A DNA stretch of 64,000 nt from a virus (taxonomy: Duplodnaviria > Caudoviricetes), in IMG/VR virus record IMGVR_UViG_3300028888_000085, positions 34,608 through 98,607 of that record, one strand, 5' to 3'. Shown piece by piece: positions 46,567 through 48,931 of the stretch (positions within the stretch are counted from its first letter, which is position 1; each line of letters begins with the position of its first letter). Below the pieces are notes generated by a model. The model was not told the origin of the DNA, made no database searches, and saw only the letters and a program-made list of their open reading frames with translations. A program made the position numbers and the translations under genes.

Positions 46567-48390
46567 TCATACCTCAGAAACAGACGTAACAATCGTTTGA
46601 TGCATCCAGTCTTTTGGAACTTCATGGTCGCATAACGTAGTATGCCGTGCCGACAGCACACGAACATCCTTTTTATTGGAAAGCGAATTTGCAGTCACTG
46701 TCTTTTTCTTCAATCGTATTCTGTGTTCTGAGATTTCCAATTTTTTACCGAACACATCCAAAAGATACCCGGCACTTTTGAGTCCGCAAGCACCGAGGAA
46801 TCCAGACTGACCGTAGTAATTGACTTTGTAATACAGCCGACATCCATGAACTTTGTCGCGTGTTGACCAGGACACATCCGTCTGAATCCATCTGCGTTTA
46901 CATTTTTTGAGCTGTTCCGCATTATCACTTATGAAAGACTCAAATTCAGCTTTTAAACGCTCTCTACGTGCTTTCTTAAACCGCTTGTATTCATTCTTTG
47001 AAGCATCCCCAAGTTCTCTACCTTCCTTTTTCAGTGCTTTCTTGAACTCAGCCATAATATCCGCATTGCTGTCTTTACGGACGCATACCTGATAATTTCC
47101 AGATTCAATATGGCGTTTCTTGAAAACCGGTGTATCTGGGTCAACCGTGAATTTAGAACCACCAGATGCAATCATACACGCATCCAGATGATGGTCTTTT
47201 GCGATTCCATGCCATTGCCTGTTCGCTTTTGTAATGTACCCAAAAGTTTCGGTTGCATTCTCAAATAACGAGATAATATGCTTTTGTTCTGATGAATCTT
47301 TCACGACCATTTTGACTGAATTGGCGGCGTTCTGTAAAAGTTGTGCACGTATGACATTCATGTGAGCTGCGTGTTTTAACACTTTCCATCTTGATGCGTT
47401 TCCAGAACCCAAGGTCTTGTATTTCACATCAAATGCGTCCTTTGTCATCGTCTTGAAATCATTATGCAGTGTGTGGTGACAGTCTTCACATAGCGTAACT
47501 AAATTTTCAAGGTCATCACTTCCGCCATTACTTCGGAATACAATGTGATGAACATGCAGTGATTTCCCTGAACGTCCTTTGAAGGAAACACCGCATATTC
47601 TGCATTTGTACTTATCCCTAGCTAAAACATGTGCTTTTGTGCTTTCATAACCATAGTTGGGTCCGTGCTGATAACCCCATGCACGAATGTCAGGATTCGA
47701 CATGTCTTTCAGTTCTGGATTTTTCAAAGCATGTGTGTCGAACTGACCGACTTCAAGCACTAAACGACTGACAGGAAGTATCCTGCTAATATCCACAACT
47801 TCTCTTACATGCGAACCTATCTTGCTTCGTATCGTAGGAGACAGAGTTGTCGTCTGTGAGTCAGGAAGTTTGTCTGGTGCACATGACAGGCATCGTTTCA
47901 AATGCTGTATCTGCTTCTTGTTGTATTTCTTAAACACTGTAGTTGTGACTTCTTTGCCGTCTTTAATAACCGTTTGCTTGACAGATTCACCACAGAGTTT
48001 CAGTTTGTCCATGATGTCTTTTTTAGTGTACGCAAAACGTGTTAAGAACCTTGGTGGTCTGCAACGTAACTTTCCACGACGTGCGGAACGATACTTTCTA
48101 CGTTGTTCCATTTTAGTCTTGATGTCTGTACGAAGTTTAACGATGGATGAATACAAAATTACTTTTCCATTTCCTTTGTCAGAACAGGCGGCAGTTCCTA
48201 TGTATTCGCTTCCTGTGTCAATACCGAGAACTAGTGGCTGCACAAAATCACATGAATCGTACAGCAGTTTAATCGTAAAAGGTTCTCGTTTTACGACTTT
48301 AGCTTTGCCTTCTTTAAGCATTCTGCGTACTTTTCCGTAACGATGCGTAGGCATTAGAGGATGATTGTTTTTGTCTATTACGTAAACCAT
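46567..48390 (-). CDS. iscB: CRISPR-associated IscB RNA-guided endonuclease (enlarged, 607 aa)
   Basis: PLMP motif; LGIDTG (D58); R-rich bridge helix; LVLEVGQFD (E213); HNH CRIC...HHIV...NLVTLCEDCH; KDHHLDA (H400/D403). Confidence 0.93.
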   Translation of the reverse strand: MVYVIDKNNHPLMPTHRYGKVRRMLKEGKAKVVKREPFTIKLLYDSCDFVQPLVLGIDTGSEYIGTAACSDKGNGKVILYSSIVKLRTDIKTKMEQRRKYRSARRGKLRCRPPRFLTRFAYTKKDIMDKLKLCGESVKQTVIKDGKEVTTTVFKKYNKKQIQHLKRCLSCAPDKLPDSQTTTLSPTIRSKIGSHVREVVDISRILPVSRLVLEVGQFDTHALKNPELKDMSNPDIRAWGYQHGPNYGYESTKAHVLARDKYKCRICGVSFKGRSGKSLHVHHIVFRSNGGSDDLENLVTLCEDCHHTLHNDFKTMTKDAFDVKYKTLGSGNASRWKVLKHAAHMNVIRAQLLQNAANSVKMVVKDSSEQKHIISLFENATETFGYITKANRQWHGIAKDHHLDACMIASGGSKFTVDPDTPVFKKRHIESGNYQVCVRKDSNADIMAEFKKALKKEGRELGDASKNEYKRFKKARRERLKAEFESFISDNAEQLKKCKRRWIQTDVSWSTRDKVHGCRLYYKVNYYGQSGFLGACGLKSAGYLLDVFGKKLEISEHRIRLKKKTVTANSLSNKKDVRVLSARHTTLCDHEVPKDWMHQTIVTSVSEV

Positions 48391-48413
48391 TTTAGAACTC
48401 CACGTTAAAGATG

Positions 48414-48608
48414 TTGCTGTAAGCCATCAGCATGAGAGCCGATGTAATGCGTACAGCCCGTAAGGGCGATACGACTTCCCCTCGACAAAGCATCGACAGA
48501 ATTGAACTGACTGAGGAGGCATCAGAACGTTTCGTTAAAGTTGATGCATAGCTCCGAAGAGCTGAGTCTGTTCCCATTAGCATGACATTTGTTACAGGCG
48601 TTTTAGAG
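48414..48608 (-). ncRNA. Anti-repeat + omegaRNA-like scaffold D, upstream of iscB
   Basis: Located where omegaRNAs lie relative to iscB; CAGACTCAG, TGCCTCCTCAG, TTGTCGAGGGGAA motifs; anti-repeat TAACAAATGTCAT. Confidence 0.88.
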
Positions 48609-48829
48609 GTATTACACTCATAACAAATGTCATACCTCTGAGACAGTCGGTACGGGCAAGAGTATTACACCCGTTACAAATGTCATACCTCTGAGACCAC
48701 GTATCCGTTGAGTCAGACGGTTTCGTCGTATTACACTCATAACAAATGTCATACCTCTGAGACTAATCAGTGCCATATCACCACCTCACCTGGGTATAAC
48801 ACTCGTAACAAATGCCACGCCTATGAGAC
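48609..48829 (-). CRISPR. Array D: 4 repeats; spacers 17, 30, 30 nt
   Basis: Repeats at 48609, 48662, 48728, 48794; transcribed consensus GTCTCAGAGGTATGACATTTGTTATGAGTGTAATAC. Confidence 0.93.
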
Positions 48830-48890
48830 GAATGCATGTAGCATAACAACCTCCAATACATAAGAGCCGTCACTATTGACGACAAGAGAA

Positions 48891-48931
48891 ACCTTAACAC
48901 AGAACCTCACTGCATAAATTTACAGCACCAT
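48891..48931 (-). promoter_or_regulatory. Phage promoter motif for array D-scaffold-iscB
   Basis: ATGGTGCTGT-N22-TGTTAAGGT. Confidence 0.6.

What the first reader, a model, noticed from the sequence alone, without database searches (positions are those of the whole stretch)
46567..48931. Phage-encoded CRISPR-IscB locus with type II-like array fused to a natural sgRNA
Seen: on the minus strand the order is promoter, 4 repeats of 36 nt, anti-repeat, ~195-nt scaffold, RBS, iscB, with RuvC (D58, E213, H400/D403) and HNH residues intact. The last repeat pairs with the adjacent anti-repeat (ATGACATTTGTTA / TAACAAATGTCAT). The repeat start GTCTCAGAGGTATG resembles the type II-A repeat start GTTTTAGAGCTATG, and the 36/30-nt geometry is type II-like. 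Known: IscB is the Cas9 ancestor, normally an IS200/605 gene with a single-guide omegaRNA, and rare CRISPR-associated IscBs exist. Inference: a domesticated, multi-guide IscB used by a large phage (no Y1 tnpA nearby), resembling an IscB-to-Cas9 intermediate.
Basis: partly seen in the sequence, partly recalled or inferred. Interest (0 to 1): 0.95.

Follow-up and report, generated by a model that had tools for sequence, protein, structure and literature searches.

The report
Jumbo-phage IscB nuclease with CRISPR guides
A large phage carries an intact IscB (the small ancestor-type relative of Cas9) whose guide RNA is fed by a short CRISPR-like array fused to the scaffold; this wiring is already published for one other IscB, but here one nuclease gene is served by six such guide cassettes scattered over the phage genome.

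Summary
On the minus strand lie a phage promoter box, four 36-nt repeats (first one diverged), three spacers (30, 30 and 17 nt, not all 30), an anti-repeat, a structured scaffold and an intact 607-aa iscB. The scaffold is a diverged HEARO-type omegaRNA whose first stem (P1) has grown into a repeat:anti-repeat duplex. It is supported by 19 base pairs with compensatory changes.

The array-fused-to-scaffold layout is the published CRISPR-associated IscB layout (DelIscB). It is not a step on the Cas9 lineage: the nearest relatives are ordinary ~420-aa phage IscBs with single-guide omegaRNAs and no arrays.

Beyond the coordinates given, the same repeat/anti-repeat/scaffold unit occurs six times in the 98.6-kb record, five times without a nuclease gene. 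Sister phages carry two array haplotypes with no shared spacer, and the variation lies at the scaffold end, not the leader end. No cas1, cas2, tnpA or RNase III gene was found in the record, which is about 38% of the genome.

No protospacer was found, so the targets and the biological role are inferred. Notes from this scan report phage CRISPR-IscB loci in at least eight other genomes.

Verdict: a real, well-supported new variant of a known kind.

The parts
48922..48931 (-). Phage promoter box ATGGTGCTGT upstream of the array
   Evidence: RTGGTGCTGT occurs 8 times in the window against 0.26 expected. The same box precedes cassette C with a TGnTATAAT element. This is motif-level evidence only.
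48609..48829 (-). CRISPR-like array A: four 36-nt repeats (48829-48794, 48763-48728, 48697-48662, 48644-48609) and three spacers (48793-48764, 48727-48698, 48661-48645; 30, 30 and 17 nt)
   Evidence: All four repeats can pair with the anti-repeat at -34.5 to -39.5 kcal/mol, against -11.7 +/- 3.0 for shuffled repeats.
48566..48608 (-). Loop and anti-repeat; with R4 it forms an elongated P1 stem, a natural single-guide RNA
   Evidence: 13-nt perfect inverted repeat. Helix 1 of the consensus structure has 26 pairs, 95% of cells paired. The single-sequence fold has z = -4.65.
48414..48565 (-). omegaRNA-derived scaffold with hairpins, a long-range closing helix and a pseudoknot
   Evidence: 19 pairs show compensatory changes, against 10.1 +/- 2.1 in shuffles and 1-5 in slid controls. 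A covariance model built from it hits a canonical HEARO element upstream of a 420-aa IscB at 38.3 bits, E about 1e-11.
48391..48413 (-). Short 5'UTR with GGAG ribosome-binding site
   Evidence: Read from the sequence. The same 24 nt are retained after nuclease-free cassette B.
46567..48390 (-). iscB, 607 aa, with catalytic RuvC and HNH residues intact
   Evidence: Pfam RRXRR and HNH. OgeuIscB matches at E 2e-42 by sequence and E 2e-25 by fold. Catalytic residues fall on invariant columns. Lineage-specific insertions lie at about aa 117-182 and about aa 436-520.
46546..46581 (-). Degenerate fifth repeat overlapping the iscB stop codon
   Evidence: 24 of 36 positions match R4. It can still pair with the anti-repeat at -27.3 kcal/mol. 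It is present in sister phage L002. Its function is unknown.
46496..46541 (-). Two exact tandem copies of a 23-bp unit just downstream of iscB
   Evidence: They are unique in the window and unexplained.
39456..39964 (-). Cassette B: 6 repeats (first two decayed), 3 full spacers, anti-repeat and scaffold, no nuclease gene
   Evidence: covariance-model hit of 243.5 bits.
61397..62014 (-). Cassette C: 7 repeats, 6 spacers and scaffold, followed by an intrinsic terminator
   Evidence: covariance-model hit of 267.6 bits.
29925..30224 (+). Cassette D: 2 repeats, 1 spacer and scaffold
   Evidence: covariance-model hit of 254.1 bits.
24871..25102 (+). Cassette E: a single repeat plus scaffold, with the flanking DNA as guide
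   Evidence: covariance-model hit of 252.7 bits.

Best explanation
This is a phage-encoded, CRISPR-array-programmed IscB RNA-guided DNA endonuclease. Shown: a transcription unit can be read from the phage promoter box through array A and the scaffold into iscB, so the guide RNA doubles as the 5'UTR, as in canonical IscB loci. The scaffold is a diverged HEARO-class omegaRNA whose P1 stem has been lengthened into a duplex of about 26 bp between the last repeat and an anti-repeat. That gives a natural single-guide RNA carrying the 17-nt spacer. The nuclease has all RuvC and HNH catalytic residues. Inferred: the upstream repeats pair with the same anti-repeat, or in trans with the anti-repeats of the five other cassettes, because the repeats and anti-repeats are cross-compatible. 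A host RNase such as RNase III then trims the duplex, so that each spacer can load IscB. The complex cuts DNA that matches the guide next to an unknown TAM. The likeliest targets are competing phages or other mobile elements. The arrays are not maintained by a phage-borne Cas1-Cas2 module in the part of the genome held here. They change by unit gain or loss at the scaffold end and by recombination among cassettes.
For: IscB identity and intact catalytic residues. Array, anti-repeat and scaffold anatomy. Structural selection on the scaffold: 96.9% of cells paired, 19 compensatory pairs with 0 of 500 shuffles reaching that number, and a covarying pseudoknot. Homology to a canonical omegaRNA. Six cassettes share cross-compatible repeats and anti-repeats. 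No spacer matches the phage's own 98.6 kb at up to 9 mismatches, as expected for guides aimed elsewhere. Sister phages from independent samples keep the locus in the same synteny but fall into two array haplotypes with no shared spacer, and one extra unit sits at the scaffold end in L002. Spacer B3 contains this phage family's promoter box (chance about 1e-3 by my own count), which hints at a related-phage target. A 16-nt guide is enough for the published CRISPR-associated IscB (PMC12660989).
Against: No protospacer was found in GenBank phages or PLSDB plasmids. Exact 21-22-nt scans also found none: IMG/VR (spacers A2, C6 and B3), JGI metagenomes (spacer A2) and GTDB species genomes (spacer A1). 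Targets, TAM and activity are therefore unknown. The anti-repeat is covalently linked to the last repeat, so use of the upstream spacers needs alternative pairing that has not been shown. Identical spacers occur in three independent samples, so the array is not turning over fast. The leader-proximal repeat R1 is diverged and was never duplicated in either haplotype, which argues against canonical leader-end adaptation. Only about 38% of the genome is held, so the absence of cas1, cas2 and RNase III genes is provisional.
Confidence: 0.7

Rival explanations
1. The cassettes are selfish, OMEGA-style homing units. IscB cuts sister-phage genomes that lack a cassette, or carry a variant site, and repair copies the cassette in. 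The benefit goes to the element rather than to phage defence.
For: Six dispersed copies with one nuclease gene. Cassette E has a single repeat and uses its flanking DNA as guide, as transposon omegaRNAs do. Cassette B keeps the iscB 5'UTR, so it descends from an iscB-linked copy. L007 carries the same array with a mosaic scaffold, which indicates gene conversion between copies. Related phages carry several canonical IscB copies each. Homing by guided nucleases is an accepted model (PMC13565253, PMC10734217).
Against: Spacers inside arrays are bounded by repeats and are a uniform 29-30 nt, so they are not flanking DNA. None resembles the phage's own sequence or the sister loci fetched, at up to 9 mismatches. 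No TnpA is in the record. The iscB locus keeps the same position in all six sister contigs.
Confidence: 0.2
2. Only the scaffold-fused terminal spacer works. The upstream repeat-spacer units are decaying relics of an array that was captured once, for instance by recombination with a host or phage CRISPR array. The system is then a fixed single-guide IscB rather than a multi-guide CRISPR system.
For: Upstream repeats decay progressively in arrays B, C and F, with pairing energies falling to shuffled levels. Truncated spacers of 2, 9, 17, 18 and 21 nt are present. Identical spacers occur across samples. No adaptation genes were found.
Against: In array A itself all four repeats pair with the anti-repeat as well as, or better than, the terminal one. 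The substitutions in R1 and R3 keep complementarity. Two haplotypes with wholly different spacers show that array contents can be replaced.
Confidence: 0.3
3. The system acts on the host or on the phage's own gene expression, by guided DNA binding or nicking at promoters and gene starts, rather than destroying competitors.
For: Spacer A1 reads like a Shine-Dalgarno sequence plus ATG, and spacer B3 contains a promoter box.
Against: All nuclease residues are intact. No spacer matches the phage's own 98.6 kb. The one spacer segment tested against GTDB species genomes (A1) found nothing.
Confidence: 0.07

Closest known systems
CRISPR-associated IscB (Altae-Tran et al. 2021, as described in PMC12660989 and PMC10734217), for example DelIscB
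   Same: IscB with PLMP, RuvC and HNH domains. The ncRNA lies upstream of the ORF and contains repeats, spacers and an anti-repeat joined to an omegaRNA-like scaffold. A short guide (16 nt) is sufficient.
   Different: DelIscB has 457 aa; this protein has 607 aa with lineage-specific insertions. This one is on a jumbo-phage genome. The scaffold-plus-array unit is present six times for one nuclease gene. Sequence relatedness to DelIscB could not be tested because no sequence was available here.
Canonical IscB with HEARO omegaRNA (OgeuIscB, PDB 7UTN/8CSZ; Rfam RF02033)
   Same: Best sequence and fold matches. The guide RNA serves as the 5'UTR. The 3' half of the scaffold, the pseudoknot and the closing helix are alignable.
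   Different: P1 is a stem of about 7 bp in the relative L003 but a duplex of about 26 bp here, split into repeat and anti-repeat. The guide comes from an array, not from transposon-flanking DNA. No Rfam HEARO hit at E <= 1. No TnpA.
Type II CRISPR-Cas9 (crRNA:tracrRNA)
   Same: 36-nt repeats and mostly 30-nt spacers. The repeat:anti-repeat duplex sits at the position of P1. RuvC plus HNH cutting chemistry.
   Different: No REC lobe. The PLMP domain is present. No cas1, cas2 or csn2 in the record. The tracr part is fused in cis to the array. Cas9 structures match only weakly (E 1e-10 or worse).
Compact CRISPR systems of huge phages without adaptation genes (CasPhi/Cas12j; cited from my own knowledge and reference 32 of PMC9755519)
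   Same: A large phage carries a miniature guided nuclease with small arrays and no adaptation module. The presumed use is against competitors.
   Different: A different nuclease family (IscB versus Cas12j). A long scaffold RNA is needed here. The guide loci are dispersed over the genome.

Membership tests
IscB (OMEGA nuclease) | N-terminal PLMP/RRXRR domain | tested here: met
   Pfam PF14239 at 8.4e-44 over residues 2-122; the PLMP motif lies at residues 11-14.
IscB (OMEGA nuclease) | Split RuvC with catalytic D, E and H/D residues, and an inserted HNH domain | tested here: met
   D58, E213, H400 and D403, and the HNH Cys/His/Asn residues, lie on invariant columns. Pfam HNH scores 2e-13.
IscB (OMEGA nuclease) | No large REC lobe; the fold matches solved IscB structures | tested here: met
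   Foldseek top hits are OgeuIscB (E 2e-25), OrufIscB and TbaIscB; Cas9 hits are far weaker. Only a helix/hairpin/helix insert of about 60 aa occupies the REC position, in a model of moderate confidence.
IscB (OMEGA nuclease) | omegaRNA encoded directly upstream of the ORF | tested here: met
   The structured scaffold ends 23 nt before the ATG. Covariation supports it. It is homologous to the omegaRNA upstream of relative P0004.
IscB (OMEGA nuclease) | Residence in an IS200/IS605 element with a Y1 TnpA | tested here: not met
   No PF01797 match in the 98.6-kb record. The published literature says this association is sparse for IscB in general (PMC9755519).
CRISPR-associated IscB (DelIscB type) | CRISPR repeats and spacers adjoining an anti-repeat and an omegaRNA-like scaffold upstream of iscB | tested here: met
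   the layout matches the description in PMC12660989.
CRISPR-associated IscB (DelIscB type) | Spacer content varies between related genomes | tested here: met
   Two haplotypes share no spacers, and there is one unit indel. Within a haplotype the spacers are identical across samples.
CRISPR-associated IscB (DelIscB type) | Spacer-directed, TAM-dependent DNA cleavage | not testable with these tools
   This needs biochemistry. No protospacers were found from which to infer a TAM.
Rfam HEARO (RF02033) | Match to the family covariance model | tested here: not met
   No hit at E <= 1 on the window region or on L002. The relative L003 scores 64.5 bits (gathering score 83), and our own model hits that same element. 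The scaffold is therefore a diverged homologue, not a scoring member.
Type II CRISPR-Cas | Cas9 effector with a REC lobe, plus a cas1-cas2 adaptation module | tested here: not met
   The effector is an IscB. No Cas1 or Cas2 match in the record, but only about 38% of the genome is held.
Type II CRISPR-Cas | Repeat related to a known type II repeat family | tested here: inconclusive
   There is only an 11-of-14 resemblance to the II-A repeat start, recalled from memory. No Rfam CRISPR-DR hit. The repeat pattern is absent from 185,579 species genomes and from other IMG/VR contigs.

The most novel reading that the evidence does not exclude
A jumbo phage runs a distributed guide network: one IscB gene and at least six array-fused omegaRNA genes. 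Any repeat can pair with any anti-repeat. New units are added at the scaffold end, or arrays are swapped between cassettes, by a mechanism that is independent of Cas1-Cas2. This would be an independent, phage-borne re-invention of the crRNA:tracrRNA principle, used in conflicts between phages.
Probability: 0.25. Interest if true: 0.85.

Novelty: new variant of a known kind. Interest (0 to 1): 0.62.

Why it matters
The locus shows, in a natural genome, how a single-guide omegaRNA can become array-fed: its P1 stem lengthens into a repeat:anti-repeat duplex. This happened inside a clade of ordinary phage IscBs, so it is independent of the Cas9 lineage. That makes the proposed route from IscB to Cas9 look repeatable rather than unique. 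The arrangement of one nuclease with six guide loci, and the apparent lack of adaptation genes, raise a testable question: how do arrays gain spacers without Cas1-Cas2? On the practical side it offers a compact nuclease with a natural multiplex guide format.

Tried and rejected
- **Rfam:** no family hit on the locus at E <= 1.
- **Close relatives by protein pattern in IMG/VR:** none.
- **Scaffold patterns:** three designs found nothing in IMG/VR or JGI metagenomes.
- **Repeat pattern:** absent from GTDB genomes and from IMG/VR. No host-array link could be made.
- **Protospacer searches:**
  - own record and sister loci at up to 9 mismatches;
  - 80 viral IscB loci;
  - GenBank phages with arrays A and C;
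  - PLSDB plasmids with array A;
  - exact 21-22-nt scans of spacers A1, A2, B3 and C6.
  
  All were negative or at chance level.
- **Single-sequence AlphaFold model:** useless, pLDDT 34.
- **Altae-Tran 2021:** could not be read, so its content is taken from secondary sources.
- **L010 as an array-bearing relative:** rejected, because its repeats are a plain 69-bp tandem array.
- **Spacer GC content:** 47.2% against 43.6% for the genome. The difference is weak (p about 0.02) and not informative.
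Full report
**Observation**

Reading the minus strand of 46300-49300 and scanning for repeats confirm the anatomy described. Four 36-nt repeats lie at 48829-48794, 48763-48728, 48697-48662 and 48644-48609. R2 and R4 are identical, R3 differs at 3 positions and R1 at 6. The spacers are 30, 30 and 17 nt, so the '36/30' geometry holds for two of the three.

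The last repeat is followed by a short loop and an anti-repeat. The ORF 46567-48390 encodes 607 aa with Pfam RRXRR (8.4e-44) and HNH (2e-13). In a 40-sequence alignment, D58, E213, H400, D403 and the HNH Cys/His/Asn residues are invariant columns, and the window protein has all of them. A GGAG lies 8 nt before the ATG.

The 'promoter' is the decamer ATGGTGCTGT at 48931-48922. RTGGTGCTGT occurs 8 times in the window against 0.26 expected. The generic sigma-70 scan found nothing better than chance.

**The scaffold is a real, structured RNA and an omegaRNA relative**

The locus of a 420-aa relative (P0004, 44% identity; L003) does carry a HEARO hit of 64.5 bits just upstream of its iscB. Its 3' half can be aligned by eye to our scaffold.

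I aligned nine non-identical copies of the unit: six paralogues in this phage and three alleles from sister phages.
- RNAalifold predicts 72 pairs, 18 of them with compensatory changes.
- With the pseudoknot added, 96.9% of cells pair.
- 19 pairs change on both sides, against 10.1 +/- 2.1 in shuffles (0 of 500 reach it) and 1-5 in slid controls.

A covariance model built from this alignment hits the HEARO element of L003 end to end at 38.3 bits, E about 1e-11. It also hits the region directly upstream of iscB in 8 of 50 other phage IscB loci. In that alignment the repeat:anti-repeat hairpin (model positions 1-74) corresponds to a stem of only about 7 bp in L003. The array-fed guide therefore arose by lengthening P1. 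The known equivalence of P1 with the Cas9 repeat:anti-repeat duplex is from my own knowledge of the IscB structures.

**Context**

The window is part of a 98.6-kb linear IMG/VR record estimated at 38% complete. The identical protein occurs on a contig of 237 kb. The neighbouring genes are phage-like:
- Dam methyltransferases, GNAT, radical SAM, ATP-dependent DNA ligase and a Dda/RecD-like helicase;
- a weak tail-sheath match;
- an endolysin and more methyltransferases.

No Cas1, Cas2, Y1 TnpA or RNase III domain is found in the record. This absence is provisional, because most of the genome is missing.

**Beyond the given coordinates**

A fuzzy search for the repeat in the whole record shows that the repeat/anti-repeat/scaffold unit occurs six times:

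| Cassette | Position | Repeats |
|---|---|---|
| A | the finding | 4 |
| B | 39964-39456 (-) | 6 |
| C | 62014-61397 (-) | 7 |
| D | 29925-30224 (+) | 2 |
| E | 24871-25102 (+) | 1 |
| F | 12.4 kb before the window | 4 |

Only A is followed by iscB, and there is a single iscB in the record. Cassettes C and F end in clear intrinsic terminators. Cassette B keeps the 24-nt iscB 5'UTR up to the position of the start codon, so it descends from an iscB-linked copy. The covariance model finds exactly these copies and no others.

Terminal repeats and anti-repeats are cross-compatible between cassettes, at about -30 to -45 kcal/mol. The exception is the anti-repeat of F, which has a deletion. In array A all four repeats pair with the anti-repeat at -34.5 to -39.5 kcal/mol, against -11.7 +/- 3.0 for shuffled repeats. 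Every spacer of this array is therefore structurally able to be used. In arrays C and F the leader-side repeats have decayed to shuffled levels.

**Population data**

Six sister contigs from independent samples carry the 607-aa IscB at 97-100% identity and, wherever flanking genes are on the contig, in the same gene order. Their arrays fall into two haplotypes.
- L004 and L007 have the window's three spacers, with one SNP.
- L002, L005 and L006 have spacers of 21, 18 and 30 nt that share nothing with the window.
- L002 alone has a fourth 29-nt spacer, inserted next to the scaffold.

The leader and the odd first repeat are conserved in both haplotypes, and that repeat has never been duplicated. 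This argues against canonical leader-end acquisition. It favours gain or loss at the scaffold end and replacement by recombination. L007 combines the window's array with a mosaic scaffold full of compensatory changes, which points to gene conversion among the paralogous cassettes.

**Targets**

None of the 21 spacers matches the record or the sister loci at up to 9 mismatches, nor the 80 viral IscB loci. BLAST of arrays A and C against GenBank phages, and of array A against PLSDB plasmids, gave only chance-level hits. Exact 21-22-nt scans for spacers A1, A2, B3 and C6 found nothing in IMG/VR, JGI metagenomes or GTDB genomes.

The only hint is that the reverse complement of spacer B3 contains this phage family's promoter decamer in a context unlike any of the phage's own copies. 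By my count the chance of that is about 1e-3, which suggests a related-phage target. The TAM is unknown.

**The protein**

Against 1.84 billion representatives the 607-aa form stands alone. The next hit is a 428-aa IscB at 282 bits and 48% identity. Relative to such proteins it has insertions after the bridge helix (about aa 117-182), at about aa 345-365, and a longer C-terminal part.

With a 40-sequence alignment AlphaFold gives pLDDT 64. It models the first insert as helix/beta-hairpin/helix and the C-terminal insert as long helices. Confidence there is moderate to low, so I make no claim about a REC function.

Foldseek ranks OgeuIscB first (E 2e-25). YnpsCas9 and II-D Cas9 follow at 1e-10 or worse. 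In IMG/VR, 270 stretches encode relatives, often several per phage genome. None of the 80 fetched loci has a CRISPR-like array within 2.5 kb. The array association here is therefore a local innovation within phage-borne canonical IscBs, not a stage on the Cas9 stem.

**Comparison with what is known**

CRISPR-associated IscBs are published. DelIscB has an upstream ncRNA containing repeats, spacers and an anti-repeat, works with a 16-nt guide, and has been discussed as an IscB-to-Cas9 intermediate (PMC12660989; summary in PMC10734217). HEARO/IscB genes on viral contigs are also published: more than 16% of contigs, described there as not CRISPR-associated (PMC9755519). No paper in the searchable library combines IscB with jumbo or huge phages in this sense.

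Notes from this scan (AI notes, not checked by me) report phage CRISPR-IscB loci in at least eight other genomes. The phage setting is therefore recurrent. Other notes on this same genome had already listed the extra cassettes, the covariation and the promoter box. I found the first two independently before reading those notes. I tested the promoter box afterwards.

**Verdict**

The locus is real and intact. It is best read as a phage-borne CRISPR-associated IscB of the DelIscB layout. Three unusual traits justify 'new variant of a known kind':
- six dispersed array-scaffold cassettes for one nuclease gene;
- array change at the scaffold end, with no adaptation genes in view;
- a lineage-specific enlarged protein.

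Function, targets and the use of the upstream spacers remain inferred.

**Unexplained**

A fifth, degenerate repeat overlaps the iscB stop codon and can still pair with the anti-repeat. Two exact 23-bp tandem units follow it.

Noticed in passing
window 46546-46581 (-): A degenerate fifth repeat (24 of 36 identical to R4) overlaps the iscB stop codon and is conserved in sister phage L002. It can still pair with the anti-repeat at -27.3 kcal/mol. Read as a crRNA, its 'spacer' would be the last codons of iscB. It may be a relic of a downstream cassette or of insertion into an older array.
   Followed up: partly
window 46496-46541 (-): Two exact tandem copies of a 23-bp unit lie between iscB and the next ORF. 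They are unique in the window and also present in L002. A protein-binding site is possible.
   Followed up: partly
window 19248-20927 (+): A TnpB-type ORF (Pfam Cas12f1-like TNB 1.9e-20, HTH_OrfB_IS605, OrfB_IS605). The phage therefore also carries a second family of RNA-guided nuclease genes. Its omegaRNA was not examined.
   Followed up: no
window 39820-39829 (+), inside spacer B3 of cassette B: The reverse complement of spacer B3 contains the phage promoter decamer ATGGTGCTGT in a context unlike the phage's own copies. This hints that the protospacer lies in a promoter of a related phage.
   Followed up: partly
window 48764-48793 (-), spacer A1: The spacer reads like a ribosome-binding site followed by ATG (GAGGTG, then 5 nt, then ATG), as if taken from a gene start. 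L004 has one SNP in this spacer.
   Followed up: no
L002:6649-9108: In the haplotype-2 sister phage the Dda/RecD-like helicase gene downstream of iscB is 1113 aa and carries Hom_end/LAGLIDADG hits. That indicates an intein or homing-endonuclease insertion absent from the window's 755-aa copy.
   Followed up: no
window 48941-50679, 35050-36588; L004:21803-21824: At least five DNA methyltransferase genes (two Dam-class, two PHROG 67-class, one N6_N4) cluster around the guide cassettes. They may protect against host restriction or mark self DNA.
   Followed up: no
L011, L012, L016, L066 (IMGVR_UViG_3300045988_158001, 248 kb): A single large phage contig carries at least four canonical IscB copies without arrays. 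IscB behaves as a multi-copy element in other big phages.
   Followed up: partly
window 48866-48883 (-): A terminator-like hairpin followed by a T-rich tail sits between the promoter box and the first repeat. It could act as an attenuator of array and iscB transcription.
   Followed up: no
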